A DNA stretch of 13,180 nt from Clostridiales bacterium (GCA_009783415.1 WRHF01000081.1:1-13180), one strand, 5' to 3'. Numbered from the stretch's first letter, positions 1 to 9,692 are shown. The notes: generated by a model from the sequence alone, not told the origin. Program-made: numbers and translations.

Positions 1-877
1 CGATTGTAGCCTGGATATTGGTGGGGTAGGCTGCCTGATTATTAGGATGCATTGTTTTCCATGAAAATCCGTGATCATACTCTGTTTGCCGTTCAAAAGA
101 GGCAAATTGGAGCATGCAGCGCTCCAGGGCATTGCGTTCTTTCGATATTTCCAGAATAACCGGCTCGGCGCCCATTGTTTCCCGAAAAAGGGCGGTCAAG
201 TCATTACTTAGACTAAAATGATTTTCCGATTTCGCAACCAAAGTCATCCGGGCCAAGTTTAAGGTGATTCGCTCCAGCTTGTTTCGGTTTTTGCGAAAGG
301 CGGCGCATTGGAGGCGGAATTTGTTATCCCGCGGGGAATAGCAAAGCTTATAAGGATGATACTGGCGTTTGCTCCGGCTGCCCTTCGGACTGTCATATTC
401 AATGATCAATGGGCTTTGCTCTTTGATTGCTTGTAAAATAGTCTTAAACCGGGATCCATAACCGGCATCCTCATAATCATCCCCGTCCAAATGGCGGTCA
501 TAAATGTGAAAATCATCGCTATTAAACAGAGGCGGGGTATCCGCAAGGGATTCCTCTAATTCGGCATATGATTCTTGATCCAGAAACAACTTGAGCCGCG
601 AATCATTAAGCAAGGATCTTAACCATGACCTTTCCAGGCCGGATAAAGGTCTTTTTATTTCCCCTGATATTTTGGAGTAGTACAAGTCGCCTCTCATTTC
701 TAAAAAACTCCATTCGCCGGAAAACAATGCCGGCAGTAAATGAAAGGTGCTGTCGTAAAAGCCATTGTCTCTGACTAATTCTTCGATCTTGGCTTTGGTC
801 AGGCCATTTTTCGCTTGCTCTAAAATCCGGGCAATCACGGTGAAATAACAACCGTAGACTTCCGAAAACAGTTCCAT
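1..877 (-). CDS. WYL-domain protein, paralog 2. The start is at 877-875 and the gene runs off the window start, so at least 292 aa are present and the C-terminus is missing.
   Basis: I translated the minus-strand frame by hand from ATG 877-875 down to position 1 and found no stop: MELFSEVYGCYFTVIARILEQAKNGLTKAKIEELVRDNGF...QYHPYKLCYSPRDNKFRLQCAAFRKNRNKLERITLNLARM... The segment PYKL..NKFRL..AAFRKNR..ERITL aligns with the WYL core of the upstream paralog (PLKI..GRRYV..YSFRKRR..FRLDYI). The start ATG overlaps the upstream gene's TGA stop as TGATG. An SD-like GGCGGTGA lies 6 nt upstream. The ORF track missed this gene because there is no in-window stop. The track's 93-aa ORF 606..887 is an out-of-frame artifact of it. 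Confidence 0.6.
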   Translation of the reverse strand, partial: MELFSEVYGCYFTVIARILEQAKNGLTKAKIEELVRDNGFYDSTFHLLPALFSGEWSFLEMRGDLYYSKISGEIKRPLSGLERSWLRSLLNDSRLKLFLDQESYAELEESLADTPPLFNSDDFHIYDRHLDGDDYEDAGYGSRFKTILQAIKEQSPLIIEYDSPKGSRSKRQYHPYKLCYSPRDNKFRLQCAAFRKNRNKLERITLNLARMTLVAKSENHFSLSNDLTALFRETMGAEPVILEISKERNALERCMLQFASFERQTEYDHGFSWKTMHPNNQAAYPTNIQATI

Positions 878-2118
878 CAAGAATCACCGCCTTCTCTTGC
901 GGCAGCTATGCCATACATATGTGCCATGCGGTTAATATCGCTGAAAAATCGTTTAACTACCGCTTCGTTTGTGCCTTCCAAACCAATAATACGGCCGGTA
1001 AAGGTTTTGATCCACGGTACTATATCAGTAGAATCGAACATCTCTTTGGTATATAAAAATGTATTGTCATCAAGTCGCTTCAGCTCGCCGCCCTGGCCCT
1101 CGCGCTTGATCCGGTCAATGATATATTGTTCATGCCGCTCATCAATACAAAGCTTCATGCTGATAGTTTCCAAGCGGTGGATACCGCCAAAAGAAACGCC
1201 CCAGACCTTGTCCAGATTGTTGTTAAGTCTTTCTTTCAATTCAGCTGCAAAATCGACCTCTTTATCGACCTTGACCGACTTGATGTAATCCAGGCGAAAG
1301 GTATTAAAGCGCCGCTTACGAAATGAATACATGCAAACATACCGCCGCCCGGTCCCGGCGCTGACAAATATTTTTAGGGGAAGGGCATGAACGATAATGC
1401 TATTGCTGCTGCGGATGCTTTGATTGGCAAAAAATACCGAACGGTTTTGCCGGATGGCCGAGAGCAAATCAAAAAGAATCCCGTCCTCTAATGTATGGGC
1501 GATGTAGTAATGCTTGAAGGCGAACAAATCGTTATCTTGATTTTCACTATCCAGAATATAGCTGCCGATTTCCCCAAAGGGCGCTGCGCCTTGAAAAAAC
1601 TTGACCGCGTCAATCAGTTTCGGCGTCAAGGGGATATTCTGCGGATTTATACTGTAAACAAAGGCCCTGCCCTGCTTTTCTTGCCTGAGCATCCCCAACT
1701 TAACATACTCTTTGCACTTATTCCTGACGGTCTGGGCATCAAAGATCATTTCACTTTTATCGCAAATAAAATCGGTGAGCTCGTCCACAGTCATAGGCGC
1801 GGCTTGGAGGGCGTCCAGAATACAAAAGTGCAGCACTATATCGTTTGCAGTGAAGCTTTTGGATTTCCAGGCGGCATAAAGAGGATTGAGCGGGATATGG
1901 GCGCAGTCAACGGAAATAAAAGATGATTTGTTGCCGCTTTTGTAATCCCATTTCATATATTCACCCAGATAACTTTCACAGCGGCGCTTTTCATTATCAT
2001 AAGTACGGGACGACTTTTTGGTGAAATCGGCGCGCGATTTAAAACCATATACATAAAAATCACGCATATAGTCCCGGATTTTATCGAAATTTTTTATTAG
2101 TTCAGAAAAATCGGACAT
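877..2118 (-). CDS. WYL-domain protein, paralog 1 (about 413 aa), a putative ligand- or RNA-sensing transcriptional regulator transcribed divergently from rtcB.
   Basis: The track ORF is 877..2208 but starts on TTG. The first ATG (2118-2116, MSDFSELIKNF...) has a weak SD-like AGGCAAGG upstream. The C-terminal half contains a WYL-like core, PLKIFVSAGTGRRYVCMYSFRKRRFNTFRLDYIKSVKV, which matches the WYL pattern (..GRWYL..ay....R.FRldRI). The C-terminal tail resembles a WCX extension (VPWIKTFTGRIIGLEG). Confidence 0.7.
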   Translation of the reverse strand: MSDFSELIKNFDKIRDYMRDFYVYGFKSRADFTKKSSRTYDNEKRRCESYLGEYMKWDYKSGNKSSFISVDCAHIPLNPLYAAWKSKSFTANDIVLHFCILDALQAAPMTVDELTDFICDKSEMIFDAQTVRNKCKEYVKLGMLRQEKQGRAFVYSINPQNIPLTPKLIDAVKFFQGAAPFGEIGSYILDSENQDNDLFAFKHYYIAHTLEDGILFDLLSAIRQNRSVFFANQSIRSSNSIIVHALPLKIFVSAGTGRRYVCMYSFRKRRFNTFRLDYIKSVKVDKEVDFAAELKERLNNNLDKVWGVSFGGIHRLETISMKLCIDERHEQYIIDRIKREGQGGELKRLDDNTFLYTKEMFDSTDIVPWIKTFTGRIIGLEGTNEAVVKRFFSDINRMAHMYGIAAAREGGDS

Positions 2119-2278
2119 AACCTTGCCTAAATCAAATTCATAGGTACTTGTACAATGTGAAATATAACACAAATTCGACAAATTTGCAAGAAAATCTATG
2201 ATTCGCAAACTTTTTTAAATGATAATGAAAGCCATTCTTGGTAAACTAATCAGAGAAAAGCACAAGGGGTTGATAATT
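2119..2278. promoter_or_regulatory. Divergent intergenic control region between the WYL-protein gene and rtcB.
   Basis: This is a 160-bp AT-rich spacer between divergent start codons. It contains the palindromes GTACTTGTAC (2144-2153) and CAAATTTG (2179-2186), and an imperfect inverted repeat CTTGTACA..TTTGCAAG. The rtcB SD AAGGGG lies at 2264-2269. Confidence 0.35.
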
Positions 2279-3511
2279 ATGTTTGTATTGCACAACGAAA
2301 ATAACAAGGCGCCGATTAAAATGTGGCTGCCGGATCAAACTTATGCCGATGAGCTGTGCCTGGAACAGGCGCTGAATCTTGCCAACCTCCCATTTATATA
2401 TAAATGGGTCTGTTTAATGCCGGATACACATGCAGGGATGGGAATGCCGATCGGCGGAGTTATAGCGACTACAGATGTGATAATCCCCAATGCGGTGGGT
2501 GTTGACATCGGTTGCGGTATGGCTTTTGTAGGAACCGATATCAGGCTTGAGGAAATCCGCGGGATCATGACCGGCAACGGGTCAATTATTCAGGGAATGA
2601 TCGGCGATATTCTGCGCAATATCCCGGTGGGCTTTAATCATCATAAAAAAATCCAAAGCTGTACCACCTTGGACGATGCCCTGGAATCAATGAATAAGTA
2701 TGAAGCCAATCCCGAGCTTTGCGAGCAAATCGAAGCGGGCTATTATCAGGTAGGAACGCTTGGCGGAGGAAACCATTTTATTGAACTGCAAGAGGATGAT
2801 GAGGGTTATCTGGGCATCATGGTCCATTCCGGCAGCCGCAACTTCGGCAAACAGGTCTGTGATTATTTTCACAATACCGCCCGTGAACTCAACCGCAAAT
2901 GGTATTCCGAAGTACCCCAGGAATGGAGACTGGCTTTCTTGCCGGTGGACAGCAAAGAGGGAAAGCAATATATCAATTGGATGAATCTGGCCCTGGACTT
3001 CGCCGCTGAAAACCGGACCAAAATGATGCTAGCCGTATCTGCGATCGTTGAAAAGTGGATCAATAAACATACAGATATCAGATTCAGCTACACCGCTGAA
3101 ATCAATTGCCATCATAATTATGCCGCTCTTGAAAATCATTATCGCAAAAATGTCTGGGTGCACCGCAAAGGCGCTACCCGGGCAAGAGCAGGAGAGCTTG
3201 CAGTAATCCCCGGCGCCATGGGTTCATACAGCTATGTAGTGGAAGGTCTGGGCAACGAAATAAGCTTTTGCTCATCTTCCCACGGAGCCGGTCGCAGCTA
3301 CTCCCGTAAGGGTGCAATGGAAAAATTTACCACACAGGAAGTCATGCTTGACCTGCAAAAGCAAGGTGTAGTTCTTGGTAAGCATAACAAAGACGATGTA
3401 GCCGAGGAAAGCCGCTTCGCCTATAAAAATATAGACGAGGTCATGGAAAATCAAAAAGACCTCGTAAAACCAATTAAGAGGCTCAAAACCCTGGGGGTAG
3501 TTAAGGGGTAG
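2279..3511 (+). CDS. rtcB: RNA 3'-phosphate / 5'-OH ligase RtcB.
   Basis: The protein shows NKAPIKMW...PFIYKWVCLMPDTHAGMGMPIGGV, GGGNHFIEL, CHHNYAA and SHGAGR, which are the canonical RtcB metal-site and active-site motifs. It aligns with E. coli RtcB from TENAPVKMW onward. I chose ATG 2279 (MFVLHNENNKAPIKMW) because it has the SD AAGGGG 9 nt upstream and gives 410 aa, against 408 aa for E. coli. The track's 2219 start adds 20 unsupported residues. Confidence 0.92.
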   Translation: MFVLHNENNKAPIKMWLPDQTYADELCLEQALNLANLPFIYKWVCLMPDTHAGMGMPIGGVIATTDVIIPNAVGVDIGCGMAFVGTDIRLEEIRGIMTGNGSIIQGMIGDILRNIPVGFNHHKKIQSCTTLDDALESMNKYEANPELCEQIEAGYYQVGTLGGGNHFIELQEDDEGYLGIMVHSGSRNFGKQVCDYFHNTARELNRKWYSEVPQEWRLAFLPVDSKEGKQYINWMNLALDFAAENRTKMMLAVSAIVEKWINKHTDIRFSYTAEINCHHNYAALENHYRKNVWVHRKGATRARAGELAVIPGAMGSYSYVVEGLGNEISFCSSSHGAGRSYSRKGAMEKFTTQEVMLDLQKQGVVLGKHNKDDVAEESRFAYKNIDEVMENQKDLVKPIKRLKTLGVVKG

Positions 3512-3665: not shown

Positions 3666-3740
3666 CCAATGACAGCACGGGGGTTCGATTCCCCCACCCT
3701 AAAAAAAGGGTTAGCTCAATCGGCAGAGCATGTCTCTTGG
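3666..3740 (+). ncRNA. Circularly permuted tRNA-like fold (tRNA-mimic core) directly downstream of rtcB.
   Basis: The elements occur in this order. T-arm: GGGGG-TTCGATT-CCCCC (3679-3695). Acceptor-like 5-bp hairpin: ACCCT-AAAAAA-AGGGT (3696-3711), capped by an A6 loop. Then TA (U8/A9-like), followed by a D-arm GCTC-AATCGGCA-GAGC (3714-3729) with the GG dinucleotide in the D-loop. Flanking strands 3671-3674 GACA with 3731-3734 TGTC, and 3666-3669 CCAA with 3737-3740 TTGG, pair to form a helix in the anticodon-stem position. A 4-nt variable-region analog GCAC lies before the T-stem. This is the arrangement expected when tRNA ends are moved to the anticodon stem. Confidence 0.5.
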
Positions 3741-5310: not shown

Positions 5311-7359
5311 CTAGCTCATGAGCTCGCAGATGGAATTGGCGAACGATACCGGGTCTTCGATGGTCAGGCCTTCTATCAGTAAAGCCTGATGATAGAGTAA
5401 CGTGGTATATGTCTTCAATTTCTCCGGATCACTGCCTTCGAGCTTGGTCAAAGCTGCAAATACGGGGTGATTGCCGTTAATCTCCAGGACCCGGTCGGCT
5501 TTTACCTGGTTATCGGTGGGCATGGAATTTAGGACTTTTTCCATTTCTATCGACAAAGGACCGTCGCTGGTCAGGCAGATGGGGTGGCTTTTTAAGCGTT
5601 TGGAAAGCCTTACTTCTTTTACTTTATCGCCCAAGGCCTCTTTCATGGCAGTAAAGAGGTCTTTATGGGTTTCGGCTTGCTCTTTAGTTGCTTCTTTTTC
5701 TTCTTTACTTTCCAAATCCAAGTCCTTATCAGAGACGCTCTTGATGGTTTTTCCCTGATATTCATTAATGATCTTAATGGCAAACTCATCCACATCCTCG
5801 GTCAGGGCTAAAATATCATAGCCTTTATCCAGCACAAGCTCGGTCTGGGGCAATTGGCGGATCCGGCTGATGCTGCTGCCGCAGGCATAATAGATAGTTT
5901 CCTGGCCCTCGGTCATTTTTTCCAAGTACTCCGCCAGGGTCACCATTTTATCTTCCTTCAGAGAATGATAGAGCAATAAATCCTGCAGCTTGTCCTTATC
6001 GGCGCCAAAACTGTTATAAATCCCGAATTTGAGCTGCATGCCAAAGTTTTTAAAGAAACCTTCGTACTTCTCGCGATCATTTTTGAGCAGCTTGAGCAGA
6101 TCCGACTTGATCCGCTTATCCAGACTCTTGGCTATGGCCTTTACCTGGCGGTCCTGCTGCAGCATTTCCCTTGAGATATTCAGGGAAAGATCCGGGGAAT
6201 CCACCAAACCTCTGACAAAGCTGAAACAATCCGGCAGCAGGTCGGCGCATTTTTCCATGATCAAAACCCCGTTGGCATAAAGTTGCAGGCCCTTTTCATA
6301 TTCTTTGCTGTAATAGTTGTAAGGGGTATTCAGAGGTATATAAAGGATCCCGTCATAGCTGATGGTTCCCTCCGCGCTGATATGGCTGTAGGTCAAAGGA
6401 ATCTCGTAATTGGAAAATTTTTCCATATAAAACTGTTCATAATCTTCTCCGTTGACCTCATTTTTATTACGCCGCCAGAGGGGAACCATACTGTTTAGGG
6501 TATCGATTTCCTGGTAATCTTCATATTCCGGCGCTTTTTTGTCGTCGCTATCCTCTGTCGCTTTGGGCCGCCTTTTGGTTAGGGCCATCTTGATGGGGTA
6601 GCGGATATAATCGGAATACTTTTTGACTATGTCCTGAATTTTGTACTGATCCAGATACTGACTGTAATTTTCCTCATCGTGGTTGTCTTTGAGCGCCAGG
6701 ATGATGGTTGTACCAAAGCCCTCTTTTTCATAAGGCTCGATACTATAGCCGTCAGCGCCCTCGGATTGCCAGCGCCAGGCTTCATTACTGCCATAGGCTT
6801 TACTGATCACGGTGATTTCTTTGCTGACCATAAAGGCGGAGTAAAAGCCCACCCCAAACTGACCGATAATATCAATATCAAAACCCGCCTCTTTGGCTTC
6901 ATCCTCTTCAGCTGGTTGAGCAGCTGTTGTTTCCTCTGCAGCATCTAAAGGTGTATCCTGGGACTCGGAAGCACTGTCATCTTCCTCTTCGTTTTCTTCT
7001 TCACCCATTCTTTCCGGCTTGAATTTTTCTAAATTATCCTTGTTTTCCTGTCTGAAATCCATAGTTCCGCTTTTGGCAATAGTACCCAGATTATTTTCCA
7101 GTTCCTCTTTGGTCATACCAAGGCCATTATCCCGAATAGTCAAGGTGCGGTTATCCTTGTCGGCCTCAATAAAAATCTCGAAGTCGCTCCGGTCAAAAGA
7201 CAGCCCGTCTTCGGTCAGGGTTTTGAAATAGAGCTTGTCCATGGCATCGCTGGCATTGGAGATCAGTTCCCGCAAAAAGATTTCTTTGTGGGTATAAATT
7301 GAATTGATCATCAGGCCCAATAAGCGTTTCGATTCCGCCTTAAATGGTTTTTTCTTCAT
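5311..7359 (-). CDS. htpG: Molecular chaperone HtpG (Hsp90), 682 aa.
   Basis: The protein shows [27 protein letters not shown], which matches the E. coli HtpG N-terminal ATPase signature, along with GTIAKSGT, a charged linker, and a [12 protein letters not shown]-terminal region. I chose the start at M14 ([17 protein letters not shown] 7359-7357), preceded by GGGGG 7 nt upstream. The track's M1 at 7398 has no SD and would lie inside the CIRCE operator. Confidence 0.9.
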
Positions 7360-7384
7360 AAGCAAACCCCCAGAAATAATATTA

Positions 7385-7411
7385 TTAGCACTCTCCATAG
7401 TCGAGTGCTAA
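7385..7411 (-). promoter_or_regulatory. CIRCE operator (HrcA binding site) in the htpG leader.
   Basis: TTAGCACTC-tccatagtc-GAGTGCTAA is a perfect match to the CIRCE consensus TTAGCACTC-N9-GAGTGCTAA. It extends to a 13-15 bp inverted repeat (ATTATTAGCACTC / GAGTGCTAATAAT), located between the promoter and the htpG SD. Confidence 0.85.
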
Positions 7412-7415
7412 TAAT

Positions 7416-7444
7416 ATAATATAACTAAATTTCCCATTTGTCAA
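7416..7444 (-). promoter_or_regulatory. Sigma-A-type promoter for htpG.
   Basis: The minus strand reads TTGACA (complement of 7439-7444), a 17-nt spacer, then TATTAT (complement of 7416-7421), immediately upstream of CIRCE. This is the classical arrangement for an HrcA-controlled promoter. Confidence 0.5.
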
Positions 7445-7460
7445 GCAAAAAAAATAGATA

Positions 7461-7489
7461 TTGTATTTGCCCTCGAAATAAGCTATAAT
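7461..7489 (+). promoter_or_regulatory. Sigma-A-type promoter for the small peptide gene.
   Basis: TTGTAT (7461-7466), a 17-nt spacer, then TATAAT (7484-7489). It is divergent from the htpG promoter. Confidence 0.45.
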
Positions 7490-7579
7490 ATGAAATAGCA
7501 CATATGCATAAGGGCGGTGGGCTTACCCCGGAAGGTGGTGATGGTATTAACCAAATCCAGCCTGAAGGAGGTGAAGCCA

Positions 7580-7663
7580 ATGAGTACATATGAAGCGCTT
7601 TCATTAATGATTGCATTCGGTACACTGATTATTTTGGTTCTGAAATTCAGGACTAAAAAATAA
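7580..7663 (+). CDS. Stand-alone small membrane peptide, 27 aa: MSTYEALSLMIAFGTLIILVLKFRTKK.
   Basis: ATG 7580 is preceded by SD AAGGAGGTG with a 6-nt spacer. The peptide is a single hydrophobic helix with a basic C-terminal tail (RTKK). The TAA stop is embedded in the 5' strand of a strong terminator. The gene has its own promoter. The 3' two-thirds of the ORF is duplicated at 9421-9477. The ORF track does not list it because it is under 60 aa. Confidence 0.5.
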   Translation: MSTYEALSLMIAFGTLIILVLKFRTKK

Positions 7664-7698
7664 CCCGCCCTGCTGTCTAGGCTACCGGGTTATTTTTT
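7659..7698. terminator. Bidirectional intrinsic terminator immediately after the small ORF.
   Basis: A 9-bp stem AATAACCCG/CGGGTTATT with an 18-nt loop, then TTTTTT on the plus strand. The preceding A6 run gives a U-run on the minus strand as well. Confidence 0.6.
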
Positions 7699-7739
7699 AA
7701 CTTTGGTAGGACTACCGCCTTTAAAGCGGTTGTGCTATT

Positions 7740-7771
7740 GAGGGGACGTTCACAGCGTCCTCTCGGTTTTT
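7740..7771 (+). terminator. Second intrinsic terminator (plus strand).
   Basis: GAGGGGACG-ttcacag-CGTCCTCTC forms 9 bp with one G-T wobble. It is followed by GGTTTTT. A further small hairpin ACCGC-CTTTAAA-GCGGT lies at 7713-7729. Confidence 0.6.
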
Positions 7772-7804
7772 ACCACAATTTCATTGTAGCATAGCTATAA
7801 TCTT

Positions 7805-7832
7805 TTGTCAATATTTTAGCGTATTTTATCAT
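7805..7832 (+). promoter_or_regulatory. Candidate promoter for the radical-SAM gene.
   Basis: TTGTCA (7805-7810), a 16-nt spacer, then TATCAT (7827-7832). It is flanked by direct repeats TAGCATAGCTATAAT (7787-7801) and TAGCATAGTTATAC (7835-7848). Confidence 0.3.
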
Positions 7833-7915
7833 ATTATAGCATAGTTATACTTTTTCCGACAGCCGGATGGTTGTGCCTAAAGAGGAATAGTCATTAATAT
7901 GAAAGGCGGTGGCAA

Positions 7916-8992
7916 ATGAATTTTGATTTAGAGCAATACCTGACCGATGGAATAGAACAGCTTGTTAAGGATGCGCTGAGGGTTACCTTGAGGAACCCGA
8001 AACAAAGCGGGTTTTTCCTGCGCTTTGCAGCTGCATCGCAAAAAGCAGCCAAGCGCAGGCATGATTTTGAAGAGGCCGGCGAGCATATCCCATCTTTTTT
8101 GATTGCCAGCATCACCGATAACTGCAATCTGGATTGCGCCGGCTGTTATGCAAGGGCAAATAATACCTCTGCCGTAGAGTTACCCGTTTCTACCTGGGAG
8201 CGCATTTTTGCTGAAGCAGAAGAGCTGGGGATTTCCGTCATTCTGCTGGCGGGGGGTGAACCTCTGCTCCGCCGTGATGTACTGGAAGCAGCTGCCCGGC
8301 GGCCGAAGATTCTATTTCCAGTGGTCACCAATGGAACCCTATTGGATGACCCGGCCCTGTACCTGTTTGATACTTGCCGCAACCTTGTTCCCGTTGTCAG
8401 CATCGAAGGGGATGCGGCCATTACCGACTCCAGGCGCGGGCAAGGCATATACATACAGGCTAGGGAAGCCATGGCCCGCCTGCGGGAACGGGGTCTTCTG
8501 TTTGGCGCTTCCATCACGGTAACAGCAGCTAATTTAGATACTGTGACCGATGGCCTCTTTATGGATAAATTGGAACGATCCGGCTGCAAGGTAGCTTTAT
8601 TTGTGGAATATGTCCCGGTGGATAAGGCAGTTCTTCCTTTAGATAATAAAGGACAGGCAACCCTTGCCGTCCGCGTCAATGACTTAAGAGCCCGCCAGAG
8701 GGGAATGATCATAATTTCCTTCCCCGGTGATGAAGCAGAATCCGGAGGATGCCTGGCGGCCGGAAGAGGGTTTTTCCATATCAACGCATCCGGCGGCGCC
8801 GAGCCATGCCCATTCTCACCGTATTCGGATCTAAATCTCAAAGATACCTCGTTGCGGGAAGCCCTCAAATCCCCGTTATTTACCCGCCTGCGGGAAGAAG
8901 GGATCCTTGACGCCAAGCATACCGGCGGTTGTGTACTCTTCGAACAAAAGGAAATTGTAGCAAAACTAGCAACCAACGACGCAACAACATAA
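7916..8992 (+). CDS. Radical-SAM enzyme (CX3CX2C) with GGEPLL and TNGTLL motifs and a Cys-containing C-terminal region. It may be a SPASM- or twitch-like peptide- or cofactor-modifying enzyme.
   Basis: The protein shows ITDNCNLDCAGCYA (Cys triad), ILLAGGEPLL, VVTNGTLL and a C-terminal GGCLAAG...AEPCPF...GGCVLF. About 70 aa of N-terminal extension precede the Cys triad. The gene is more GC-rich than its neighbours; this also produces the spurious 296-aa antisense ORF at 8146..9036. The SD-like AAAGGCGGTGG lies upstream of ATG 7916. Confidence 0.8.
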   Translation: MNFDLEQYLTDGIEQLVKDALRVTLRNPKQSGFFLRFAAASQKAAKRRHDFEEAGEHIPSFLIASITDNCNLDCAGCYARANNTSAVELPVSTWERIFAEAEELGISVILLAGGEPLLRRDVLEAAARRPKILFPVVTNGTLLDDPALYLFDTCRNLVPVVSIEGDAAITDSRRGQGIYIQAREAMARLRERGLLFGASITVTAANLDTVTDGLFMDKLERSGCKVALFVEYVPVDKAVLPLDNKGQATLAVRVNDLRARQRGMIIISFPGDEAESGGCLAAGRGFFHINASGGAEPCPFSPYSDLNLKDTSLREALKSPLFTRLREEGILDAKHTGGCVLFEQKEIVAKLATNDATT

Positions 8993-9369: not shown

Positions 9370-9420
9370 TATTATTCTCCTTTATACTATCAAAGCCAGT
9401 AGAGGCTATGTCTAGAAATA

Positions 9421-9477
9421 ATGATTGCTTTCGGAACACTTATTATTTTGATCCTGAAATTCAGGACAAAAAAATAA
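9421..9477 (+). pseudogene. Truncated remnant of the small peptide gene (MIAFGTLIILILKFRTKK).
   Basis: It is in-frame and homologous to residues 10-27 of the 7580 ORF, with an internal ATG only. It has no SD or promoter, and an in-frame TAG lies 7 codons upstream. It is probably non-functional. Confidence 0.4.
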
Positions 9478-9514
9478 CCCGCCCTTTGTCTAGGTTTTCG
9501 GGTTATTCTTTATA
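9473..9514. terminator. Intrinsic terminator. It is strongest on the minus strand and probably terminates the aroQ-fusion transcript.
   Basis: The same 9-bp stem as at 7659-7694. On the minus strand it is followed by TTTTTTTGTCC (7 U). On the plus strand the U-run is weaker (CTTTAT). Confidence 0.5.
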
Positions 9515-9552
9515 ACACCGGTAAGCCTACCGCCTTTAAAGCGGTTGTGCCC

Positions 9553-9585
9553 GAGGGGACGTGCGTAGCGTCCTCTCTTTTTATT
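9553..9585 (+). terminator. Intrinsic terminator, repeat copy B.
   Basis: A 9-bp stem with a 7-nt loop, followed by TTTTTATT. Confidence 0.5.
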
Positions 9586-9692
9586 ACAATATCATTTTAG
9601 CATAGCTACAATGTATTGTCAATAATTTAACTTGTTTCGTTATATTGTTAGAAAATTTACCCATCTATCGGGAGCCCATAAGTTTTATCCGT

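What the first reader, a model, noticed from the sequence alone, without database searches (positions are those of the whole stretch)
7461..7915. Highly expressed 27-aa hydrophobic/basic peptide gene, with its own promoter, a strong SD and two tandem terminators, immediately upstream of a radical-SAM enzyme
The peptide MSTYEALSLMIAFGTLIILVLKFRTKK has every hallmark of a real small gene: a -35/-10 pair, the SD AAGGAGGTG, and a stop codon embedded in a strong terminator with a second terminator 45 nt later. Its physico-chemical profile (one transmembrane helix plus a cationic tail) is that of type I toxins or holin-like small membrane proteins. Alternatively, a short peptide gene followed by attenuating hairpins and then a radical-SAM enzyme is the classical layout of a RiPP precursor and its maturase. 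Either reading would make this an undescribed small-protein system.
Basis: partly seen in the sequence, partly recalled or inferred. Interest (0 to 1): 0.65.

Follow-up and report, generated by a model that had tools for sequence, protein, structure and literature searches.

The report
Type I toxin–antitoxin cassette, known family
The 27-residue peptide gene is real, but it belongs to the known BsrG/BsrE/TxpA-type "holin-like toxin" family, which is silenced by a convergent antisense RNA, and nothing links it to the neighbouring radical-SAM gene.

Summary
The ORF is present at 7580-7663 (+) and encodes MSTYEALSLMIAFGTLIILVLKFRTKK. It has a strong SD and a perfect -10 box. It matches Pfam PF16935 Hol_Tox at 46 bits against a cut-off of 23.3.

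The surrounding RNA, about 7498-7763, aligns end to end with Rfam BsrG. The score is 46-48 bits with E of 2e-8 to 2e-10, which is below the gathering score of 55. The predicted fold reproduces the probed bsrG mRNA layout: a long 5'/3' helix, internal stem-loops holding the SD and the stop codon, and a terminal terminator.

A strong convergent promoter (TTGACA-17-TGcTACAAT, 7811..7783, minus strand) would drive an antisense RNA of about 120 nt across the toxin 3' region. This RNA would end at the bidirectional hairpin on the stop codon. Promoter, hairpin and helix all recur across more than 119 family loci in Bacillota.

None of those loci carries a radical-SAM homologue, and five radical-SAM orthologue loci at 67-71% identity lack the peptide. 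The RiPP reading is therefore rejected.

New observation: a second, 5'-truncated copy lies at about 9419-9626. It keeps the 3' structure and the antisense promoter, so it is probably an orphan antitoxin. Verdict: a new member of a known kind, of low interest.

The parts
7461..7489 (+). Toxin promoter: TTGTAT (7461-7466), a 17-nt spacer, then TATAAT (7484-7489). The transcription start is inferred at about 7495-7500.
   Evidence: Read from the sequence. The -35 matches only 3 of 6 positions, so the scan did not list it. The Rfam BsrG alignment starts at 7498-7501.
7498..7772 (+). Toxin mRNA of about 275 nt, with a BsrG-like architecture.
   Evidence: Rfam RF01412 aligns over its full length at 46.3/48.1 bits, E 2e-8/2e-10, below the gathering score of 55. 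The minimum free energy is -105.3 kcal/mol, z = -6.2.
7499..7527 (+). 5' arm of the long-range helix P1. It pairs with 7705-7734 (25 bp in four sub-helices).
   Evidence: Helix list. Across 90 non-redundant family loci, cognate 5'/3' arms pair better than non-cognate arms: median -37.8 against -26.7 kcal/mol, p = 8e-22.
7565..7575 (+). Shine-Dalgarno sequence GAAGGAGGTGA. It is partly paired in the free mRNA. It is predicted to pair with the freed 5' arm GGCUUACCCC when the 3' region is absent or blocked.
   Evidence: An SD-like motif precedes 115 of 124 family ORFs.
7580..7663 (+). Toxin ORF of 27 residues, MSTYEALSLMIAFGTLIILVLKFRTKK: one hydrophobic helix and a basic tail.
   Evidence: Pfam PF16935 at 46 bits against a cut-off of 23.3. 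PHROG 9488 at E 8e-11. tblastn homologues in 39 phage and 225 plasmid records. 124 family ORFs, mostly 23-29 residues.
7654..7699 (.). Symmetric hairpin over the stop codon (AAAAAATAACCCG...CGGGTTATTTTTT). It is the SL3-equivalent of the toxin mRNA and the predicted terminator of the antisense RNA. The antisense U tract is the complement of the Lys-Lys-stop codons.
   Evidence: Perfect 14-nt arms. Fold energy -19.4 kcal/mol. A post-stop hairpin at or below -12 kcal/mol occurs in 83% of 123 loci, against 2% of shuffles.
7705..7734 (+). 3' arm of P1. It contains a local alternative hairpin ACCGCCUUUAAAGCGGU.
7737..7772 (+). Terminator of the toxin mRNA (SL4-equivalent), two nt after P1.
   Evidence: -18.9 kcal/mol, followed by UUUUU. 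This matches the position of bsrG SL4 (PMC3834814).
7783..7811 (-). Convergent antitoxin promoter: TTGACA (7811..7806), a 17-nt spacer, then TACAAT (7788..7783) with a TG extension.
   Evidence: 11 of 12 matches. A promoter of at least 10 of 12 in the same position and strand occurs in 52% of 122 family loci. The controls give 11% on the other strand and 3% in shuffles. The -10 edge sits at stop+90 to +130, and at +119 in the window.
7653..7776 (-). Predicted antitoxin antisense RNA of about 120 nt. It is fully complementary to the last codons, stop codon and 3' UTR of the toxin mRNA.
   Evidence: Inferred from the promoter and the hairpin terminator (-43.3 kcal/mol, z = -3.8). There is a weak Rfam RatA match at 7781..7691 (25.8 bits, E 0.35, gathering score 49). 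RatA passes its gathering score at the same relative place in Listeria and E. faecalis relatives.
9419..9626 (+). Second, 5'-truncated copy of the cassette. It holds:
- a remnant ORF at 9421-9477 (MIAFGTLIILILKFRTKK, no SD);
- a post-stop hairpin at 9473-9507;
- a P1 3'-arm equivalent at 9520-9550;
- a terminator at 9553-9577 plus a T run;
- an antisense promoter at 9622..9594.
   Evidence: Family HMM hit at E 3.4e-8. Repeats spaced 1811-1815 nt. 83% identity to copy 1. Substitutions fall on 5 of 91 stem and promoter positions against 21 of 57 loop and linker positions, Fisher p = 2.3e-6.
9467..9587 (-). Predicted orphan antitoxin RNA of copy 2.
   Evidence: Promoter TTGACA-17-TAAAAT with TG, 11 of 12 matches. 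Fold energy -39.5 kcal/mol. Its duplex with the 3' part of the copy-1 toxin mRNA is -161 kcal/mol, against -54 for shuffles.

Best explanation
The locus is a chromosomal type I toxin-antitoxin cassette of the Hol_Tox family (the BsrE/BsrH and TxpA/BsrG toxins).

**The toxin mRNA.** A weak sigma-A-type promoter (-10 at 7484-7489) makes an mRNA of about 275 nt. Its 5' end (7499-7527) pairs with its 3' UTR (7705-7734). This closes a compact fold that holds the SD, the 27-codon ORF and a hairpin over the stop codon. A separate terminator follows at 7737-7772.

**The antitoxin RNA.** A stronger convergent promoter (7811..7783, minus strand) makes an antisense RNA of about 120 nt. This RNA is perfectly complementary to the last codons and the 3' UTR. 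It ends at the symmetric hairpin, whose U tract is the complement of the toxin's Lys-Lys-stop codons.

**Repression.** By analogy with SR4/bsrG and SR5/bsrE, the duplex is expected to trigger RNase III-dependent decay. It also strips the 3' arm from helix P1. The freed 5' arm (GGCUUACCCC) is then predicted to pair with the SD, which blocks translation. If repression fails, the peptide inserts into the membrane through its single helix with the basic tail in the cytoplasm, and it harms the cell envelope.

**The second copy.** A truncated copy at 9419-9626 has lost its toxin start but keeps the antisense gene. It probably supplies extra antitoxin in trans.

**Shown:** family membership, RNA architecture, and conservation of the promoter, hairpin and helix.
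**Inferred:** expression, toxicity, RNase III involvement, the SD switch, and trans-protection by copy 2.
For: **Peptide family**
- Pfam Hol_Tox at 46 bits against a cut-off of 23.3.
- The same model hits SPbeta-like, Brevibacillus-phage, Listeria and E. faecalis peptides. It also hits my recalled BsrG sequence.
- tblastn homologues on plasmids are annotated 'putative holin-like toxin'.

**RNA architecture**
- Rfam BsrG aligns over its full length at E 2e-8 to 2e-10.
- The relatives score 212 and 121 bits for BsrG, or 143-163 bits for rli28. In the rli28 loci, RatA on the opposite strand passes its gathering score.
- The fold has z = -6.2 and the P1/SL1-SL3/SL4 layout. This layout was determined experimentally for bsrG mRNA (PMC3834814).

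**Conservation across the family**
- Convergent promoter: 52% of loci against 11% and 3% in the controls, clustered at stop+90 to +130.
- Cognate 5'/3' arms pair better than non-cognate arms, p = 8e-22.
- Post-stop hairpin: 83% of loci against 2% of shuffles.

**Paralogue comparison**
- Substitutions avoid stems and the antisense promoter, p = 2.3e-6.

**SD switch**
- The fold of the truncated or antitoxin-blocked mRNA pairs the 5' arm with the SD.

**Literature**
- 3'-overlapping antitoxins in B. subtilis (PMC6562991).
- EF3263 has an antisense RNA of about 110 nt and is toxic in E. coli (PMC2887945).
- rli28 and ratA are highly expressed on Listeria plasmids (PMC9484302).
Against: - There are no expression or toxicity data for this locus.
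- The Rfam BsrG score is below the gathering score (46-48 against 55).
- The RatA match is not significant (25.8 bits, E 0.35).
- The predicted change in SD accessibility on antitoxin binding is modest: P(unpaired) falls from 0.45 to 0.37.
- BsrE-type toxins are only weakly toxic (PMC6562991). A weak ComI match (21.7 bits, cut-off 55) hints that some relatives may have non-lethal roles.
- The first hairpin could also terminate some sense transcripts early. That would give a short mRNA lacking the P1 3' arm.
- The family set came from a pattern that fixed the N-terminal motif. Conservation of that motif within the set is therefore circular.
Confidence: 0.85

Rival explanations
1. RiPP system: the peptide is a precursor that the downstream radical-SAM enzyme (7916-8992) modifies. 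The hairpins would attenuate read-through into the maturase gene.
For: - The peptide gene lies next to a gene with a radical-SAM domain (52.9 bits) and a sub-threshold SPASM match (16.1 bits against a cut-off of 21.5).
- Weak core-only NCBIfam similarity to sactipeptide and ranthipeptide maturases.
- A second (truncated) copy of the peptide gene lies on the other side of the radical-SAM and DUF503 genes.
Against: - tblastn finds no radical-SAM homologue (E <= 1e-3) in the stored stretch (up to 8 kb) around any of the 119 or more family loci.
- Radical-SAM orthologues at 67-71% identity sit behind DUF218, Peptidase_M24 or TetR genes, with short or no intergenic gaps. A family HMM finds no Hol_Tox ORF there.
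- A terminator and a strong convergent promoter lie between the two genes.
- The peptide has no Cys and no leader/core organisation.
- No NCBIfam maturase model comes near its cut-off.
- Homologous peptides sit on phages and plasmids with unrelated neighbours.
Confidence: 0.02
2. A non-lethal small membrane protein of the same family. It would act as a modulator of a membrane machine or as a stress-responsive factor, in the way ComI inhibits competence. The antisense RNA would tune its level rather than prevent killing.
For: - Weak NCBIfam ComI match, residues 1-20, 21.7 bits.
- BsrE and BsrH are toxic only when over-expressed (PMC6562991).
- The locus is chromosomal, among housekeeping genes, and not on an evident mobile element.
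- The family is multi-copy in many genomes.
Against: - The ComI score is far below its cut-off of 55.
- The whole regulatory architecture matches that of characterised toxin loci: a sequestered SD, a strong convergent antisense promoter, and retention of the antitoxin in the decayed copy.
- Family members BsrG and EF3263 are demonstrably toxic (PMC3834814, PMC2887945).
Confidence: 0.1
3. A non-coding regulatory RNA of the rli28 type, in which the ORF is incidental and not translated.
For: - Rfam classes rli28 and BsrG as sRNA genes. The window matches rli28 at 36.6 bits, below its gathering score of 45.
- The ORF was not called in the source record.
Against: - The peptide is conserved at the protein level across very divergent nucleotide sequences, with length, hydrophobic core and basic tail all kept.
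- The SD is strong and correctly spaced in 115 of 124 loci.
- Between the two window copies, the shared 18 codons differ at 5 nt but at only 1 residue.
- rli28 loci are now read as bsrH-like toxin mRNAs (PMC9484302).
Confidence: 0.03

Closest known systems
[quoted passage not shown]
   Same: - The toxin mRNA is of similar size: about 275 nt here, 294 nt for bsrG.
- Both have a long helix between the 5' end and the 3' UTR.
- Both have the SD in a short stem and the stop codon in a stem-loop.
- Both have a terminator directly after the long helix.
- Both have a convergent antisense RNA over the 3' region. The predicted overlap here is about 120 nt, against 123 nt for SR4.
- A refolding that sequesters the SD more tightly when the antitoxin binds is shown for SR4 and predicted here.
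   Different: - The Rfam score is below the gathering score (46-48 against 55).
- The peptide has 27 residues and is of the BsrE/BsrH type, not the 38-residue BsrG.
- The predicted antitoxin is shorter, about 120 nt against 180 nt.
- The host is an uncultured Clostridiales bacterium, and the locus is not in an evident prophage.
- Nothing has been tested experimentally.
bsrE/SR5 and bsrH/as-bsrH (the BsrE/BsrH toxin group; Pfam PF16935 Hol_Tox)
   Same: - The peptide has a similar length (27 residues against 29-30) and the motif M-S-T-[YF]-[EQ]-A-L-x-L-M-[IL]-A-F-G.
- It has a single transmembrane helix and a Lys-rich end.
- The antisense RNA overlaps the 3' end.
- The group is reported as widespread in Bacillus, Lactobacillus, Halobacillus and Enterococcus (PMC6562991).
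   Different: - I did not have the BsrE or BsrH sequences in hand. The assignment rests on Pfam and on SPbeta-like and Listeria homologues.
- SR5 is reported not to change the SD structure, whereas a switch is predicted here.
rli28 / bsrH-like / ratA loci of Listeria and Enterococcus plasmids (Rfam RF01492 and RF01776); EF3263 of E. faecalis
   Same: - The 5' UTR has an upstream SD-like GGTGATG motif and an in-frame upstream start.
- The Hol_Tox peptide is shared.
- The antisense RNA sits at stop+30 to +118.
- An antisense RNA of about 110 nt was detected for EF3263 (PMC2887945).
   Different: - The window scores only 36.6 bits for rli28 (gathering score 45) and 25.8 bits for RatA (gathering score 49).
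- The window locus is chromosomal, not plasmid-borne.

Membership tests
Pfam PF16935 Hol_Tox (putative holin-like toxin) | Whole-protein score above the curated gathering score. | tested here: met
   46 bits against 23.3, E 4.7e-12, residues 1-23 on profile positions 1-23.
Pfam PF16935 Hol_Tox (putative holin-like toxin) | Short peptide of about 25-40 residues, with one hydrophobic helix and a basic C-terminus. | tested here: met
   The sequence has 27 residues, with ALSLMIAFGTLIILVL followed by KFRTKK. The helix was read by eye and not run through a predictor.
Rfam RF01412 BsrG (toxin mRNA) | Covariance-model score at or above the gathering score (55 bits). | tested here: not met
   46.3 and 48.1 bits, although the alignment is full-length (1-259) at E 2e-8 and 2e-10. 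The locus works like BsrG but is not a curated member.
Rfam RF01412 BsrG (toxin mRNA) | Long 5'/3' helix P1 enclosing SL1-SL3, with terminator SL4 adjacent (PMC3834814). | tested here: met
   Predicted fold: 7499-7527 pairs with 7705-7734, and the terminator is at 7737-7767. This is in silico only.
Type I toxin-antitoxin system with a 3'-overlapping cis-antisense antitoxin | Convergent promoter that yields an RNA complementary to the toxin mRNA. | tested here: met
   TTGACA-17-TGcTACAAT at 7811..7783. Position and strand are conserved across the family.
Type I toxin-antitoxin system with a 3'-overlapping cis-antisense antitoxin | The antisense RNA is actually made and represses the toxin. | not testable with these tools
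   No transcriptome is available for this contig.
Type I toxin-antitoxin system with a 3'-overlapping cis-antisense antitoxin | The peptide is toxic when de-repressed or over-produced. | not testable with these tools
   Toxicity is known only for the relatives BsrG, BsrE (on over-expression) and EF3263 (PMC6562991, PMC2887945).
Rfam RF01776 RatA (antitoxin RNA) | Score at or above the gathering score (49 bits) on the strand opposite the toxin 3' UTR. | tested here: not met
   25.8 bits, E 0.35, at 7781..7691. The Listeria and E. faecalis relatives pass at 49.1 and 58.4 bits.
RiPP precursor plus radical-SAM/SPASM maturase | Conserved co-occurrence of the peptide family with the enzyme family. 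| tested here: not met
   No radical-SAM hits in the family loci. No Hol_Tox ORF at five radical-SAM orthologue loci.
RiPP precursor plus radical-SAM/SPASM maturase | The enzyme matches a maturase family, or carries a SPASM domain above its cut-off. | tested here: not met
   SPASM at 16.1 bits against 21.5. The best NCBIfam maturase hits score 48-69 bits against cut-offs of 340-650.
RiPP precursor plus radical-SAM/SPASM maturase | Co-transcription of the precursor and the maturase. | tested here: inconclusive
   A terminator at 7737-7772 and a convergent promoter at 7811..7783 lie between the two genes. Read-through cannot be excluded without RNA data.

The most novel reading that the evidence does not exclude
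The cassette may have been partly co-opted to control its neighbour.
- The 11-mer of the toxin 5' arm (AAGGGCGGTGG, 7510-7520) recurs with one mismatch as the ribosome-binding site of the radical-SAM gene (AAAGGCGGTGG, 7902-7912).
- The P1 3' arm (7712-7723) is therefore complementary to that site, with a predicted duplex of -20 kcal/mol over 11 contiguous pairs. The core of the arm (CTACCGCCTTTA) is identical in copy 2, but no sense promoter is evident there.
- The toxin mRNA could thus act as an anti-SD RNA on radical-SAM translation. The two antitoxin RNAs carry the same motif as the ribosome-binding site and could act as decoys that relieve the block.
- Separately, the truncated copy may be a maintained orphan antitoxin that protects in trans.
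Probability: 0.05. Interest if true: 0.5.

Novelty: new member of a known kind. Interest (0 to 1): 0.2.

Why it matters
The locus adds one unannotated member to a known family. The gene was not called in the source record.

In passing, the survey shows that this toxin family, together with its convergent antisense promoter and long-range mRNA helix, is abundant and often multi-copy in Negativicutes and Clostridia. These groups include gut genera such as Phascolarctobacterium, Megasphaera, Dialister and Veillonella. A 2019 review stated that homologues of known type I toxins were found in few clostridial species (PMC6563280).

The intact cassette paired with a toxin-less copy that retains its antitoxin is a tidy natural example of toxin-antitoxin decay.

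The practical lesson for the scan is that a short hydrophobic ORF next to a radical-SAM gene is not enough to call a RiPP.

Tried and rejected
I used tblastn in the annotated collections and degenerate DNA patterns instead.
- blastn of 7461-7915 against phages found nothing. Nucleotide similarity to relatives is confined to the SD and the N-terminal codons.
- PADLOC found nothing for the peptide, and only generic radical-SAM (pVip) similarity for the enzyme.
- A full-length covariance model of about 275 positions would exceed the calibration limit. I tested covariation with cognate against non-cognate arm duplexes instead.
- I tested whether 7816-7915 holds further cassette remnants: a second extended -10 box, and a promoter-like stretch with a 5'-arm-like stretch before the radical-SAM ATG. 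The local alignment was not better than shuffles, with 62 of 300 reaching the observed score. I rejected the idea as unsupported.
- The comparison of sense and antisense promoter scores used search windows of unequal length. I did not use it as evidence.

Full report
**Observation**

The ORF is present. It starts at ATG 7580 and stops at TAA 7661-7663, and it encodes MSTYEALSLMIAFGTLIILVLKFRTKK. The SD GAAGGAGGTGA lies at 7565-7575.

Upstream there is a perfect TATAAT at 7484-7489, 17 nt after TTGTAT at 7461-7466. The -35 matches only 3 of 6 positions, so the consensus scan did not list this promoter.

Two hairpins follow the ORF. The first is symmetric, with perfect 14-nt arms at 7654-7667 and 7686-7699, and it covers the stop codon. 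The second lies at 7737-7767 and is followed by a U run.

An in-frame ATG at 7541 could give a 40-residue form. The family profile, however, starts at the Met of 7580.

**What the peptide is**

- It matches Pfam PF16935 Hol_Tox at 46 bits against a cut-off of 23.3, E 4.7e-12.
- It matches PHROG 9488 at E 8e-11.
- tblastn finds homologues in 39 phage records: Brevibacillus phages, SPbeta-like phages, Listeria phages and streptococcal satellites.
- tblastn also finds homologues in 225 plasmid records from Lactococcus, Enterococcus and Listeria. Many of these are annotated 'putative holin-like toxin'.
- The same Pfam model hits those peptides, and also my recalled BsrG sequence.
They span Negativicutes, Clostridia and Bacilli, often with several copies per genome or tandem copies.
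- The ORFs are mostly 23-29 residues, and an SD-like motif precedes 115 of 124 of them.

**What the RNA is**

Rfam BsrG aligns over its full length to 7498-7763. The score is 46.3-48.1 bits with E of 2e-8 to 2e-10, below the gathering score of 55. Rfam rli28 scores 36.6 bits.

In the relatives, BsrG scores 212 bits (SPbetaL8) and 121 bits (Brevibacillus phage Emery). rli28 scores 143-163 bits in the Listeria and E. faecalis plasmids. In those plasmids the RatA antitoxin model passes its gathering score on the opposite strand, just 3' of the ORF.

The window transcript 7499-7772 folds at -105.3 kcal/mol with z = -6.2. The fold has these parts:
- a 25-bp helix between 7499-7527 and 7705-7734;
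- internal stem-loops carrying the SD and start codon;
- a hairpin over the stop codon;
- a terminator two nt after the long helix.

This is the layout determined by probing for bsrG mRNA. There, P1 pairs nt 1-35 with nt 232-262, SL1-SL3 lie inside it, and terminator SL4 lies one nt from P1 (PMC3834814).

**The antitoxin**

[quoted passage not shown] The RNA it would make starts at about 7776. It runs through the complements of the terminator and of the P1 3' arm. It ends at the symmetric hairpin, where the U tract is the complement of the Lys-Lys-stop codons. This RNA folds at -43.3 kcal/mol, z = -3.8.

The arrangement is conserved across the family loci:
- A promoter matching at least 10 of 12 positions lies on the antisense strand in 52% of 122 loci. 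The figure is 11% on the other strand of the same DNA and 3% in shuffles. The -10 edge clusters at stop+90 to +130, and lies at +119 in the window.
- A post-stop hairpin at or below -12 kcal/mol is present in 83% of loci, against 2% of shuffles.
- Cognate 5' and 3' arms pair better than arms taken from different loci. The medians are -37.8 and -26.7 kcal/mol over 90 non-redundant loci, p = 8e-22. This is covariation at family scale.

**Mechanism**

By homology with SR4/bsrG and SR5/bsrE, the antisense RNA should pair with the 3' region and promote RNase III-dependent decay (PMC3834814, PMC6562991).

A second effect is predicted. When the 3' region is absent (a nascent or truncated transcript) or blocked (antitoxin bound), the freed 5' arm GGCUUACCCC pairs with GG.AGGUGAAGCC, which is the SD. 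This parallels the SR4-induced extension of the SD helix. It is inference only, and the computed change in SD accessibility is small, from 0.45 to 0.37.

The mode of action of the toxin is not known for this subgroup. BsrG perturbs envelope synthesis without forming pores (PMC6562991).

**The radical-SAM neighbour**

The contig comes from an uncultured Clostridiales bacterium. The radical-SAM protein belongs to a large family: all 8000 candidates scored had E <= 1e-20.

Five orthologue loci at 67-71% identity (from four distinct proteins) have DUF218, Peptidase_M24 or TetR genes directly upstream. A family HMM finds no Hol_Tox ORF in them. Conversely, tblastn finds no radical-SAM homologue in any of the family loci. 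SPASM is below its cut-off, and no maturase model comes close to passing. The RiPP reading is therefore rejected.

**A second copy**

The family HMM also hit the frame that opens at 9403, at E 3.4e-8. Positions 9419-9626 are a copy of 7605-7815 at 83% identity, spaced 1811-1815 nt from it.

This copy has lost its promoter, 5' UTR, SD and first codons. An alignment suggests a 14-nt deletion after a vestigial ATG at 9408. The remnant reads MIAFGTLIILILKFRTKK.

It keeps the post-stop hairpin, the P1 3' arm, the terminator (9553-9577, flagged) and the antisense promoter (TTGACA-17-TAAAAT with TG, 9622..9594).

Substitutions between the two copies avoid stems and promoter hexamers. They fall on 5 of 91 such positions, against 21 of 57 loop and linker positions, p = 2.3e-6. 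The predicted antisense RNA of this copy would still pair strongly with the intact toxin mRNA, at -161 kcal/mol against -54 for shuffles. It is most simply read as an orphan antitoxin.

The two copies flank the radical-SAM gene and a convergent DUF503 gene. Tandem copies are common in the family, so an ancestral tandem pair split by a rearrangement is plausible. I could not test this.

**Comparison and verdict**

The locus works like bsrG/SR4 and bsrE/SR5. It is a curated member of Pfam Hol_Tox. It falls short of the Rfam BsrG, rli28 and RatA gathering scores.

The RiPP reading and the claim that the system is undescribed are not. This is a new member of a known kind, and interest is low.

Noticed in passing
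window 9419-9626 (+), antisense promoter 9622..9594 (-): A second, 5'-truncated copy of the toxin cassette, 83% identical to 7605-7815. The toxin start and SD are lost. The 3' structure, terminator and antisense promoter are conserved, so it is probably an orphan antitoxin. Together with copy 1 it flanks the radical-SAM and DUF503 genes as direct repeats about 1813 nt apart.
   Followed up: yes
window 7385-7411, with the minus-strand promoter at 7444..7416: A perfect CIRCE operator (TTAGCACTC-N9-GAGTGCTAA) overlaps the promoter region of htpG (5311-7398, minus strand). I know CIRCE as the HrcA heat-shock operator. This points to HrcA-type control of htpG, immediately next to the toxin promoter.
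   Followed up: partly
window 7902-7912 compared with 7510-7520 and 7712-7723: The ribosome-binding site of the radical-SAM gene (AAAGGCGGTGG) is a one-mismatch copy of the toxin 5' arm. It is therefore complementary to the P1 3' arm, with a predicted duplex of -20 kcal/mol. Orthologues have different ribosome-binding sites. About 0.2 matches are expected in the whole window. The wider region 7816-7915 shows no significant similarity to the cassette.
   Followed up: partly
window 7783-7805 and 7833-7855: A direct repeat 50 nt apart duplicates the extended -10 box of the antisense promoter (TGCTACAAT and TGCTATAAT). Each copy is an imperfect palindrome (TTGTAGC-ATA-GCTATAA). It could be a second antisense start, an operator pair near the radical-SAM promoter, or chance in AT-rich DNA.
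   Followed up: partly
window 3678-3729 (+), downstream of RtcB (2219-3511); WYL-domain gene at 877-2208 (-): Sub-threshold matches to the tRNA-like part of the Y-RNA-like family YrlA (27.2 bits) and to the 3' end of tmRNA lie just after an RtcB RNA-ligase gene. A WYL-domain regulator is divergently transcribed. ARAGORN calls no tRNA. This may be a tRNA-like or Y-like RNA associated with RtcB.
   Followed up: no
loci L054, L088, L089, L123; also L027/L038/L055, L014/L046/L050 and L029/L047/L077: The toxin family is multi-copy in single genomes of Phascolarctobacterium, Dialister and Megasphaera. In an Oscillospiraceae genome and in two Megasphaera MAG loci (L089, L054) it occurs as tandem pairs 330-400 nt apart. 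In several Negativicutes and Clostridia loci I inspected, the antisense -10 box directly abuts the 3' arm of the long helix, with no separate terminator hairpin.
   Followed up: partly
window 7541-7579 (+): An in-frame upstream ATG, preceded by an SD-like GGAAGGTGGTG, could give a 40-residue N-terminally extended peptide. The same GGTGATG arrangement with a second SD occurs in the Listeria, Enterococcus and Lactococcus rli28-type loci, where annotators used the longer ORF.
   Followed up: partly
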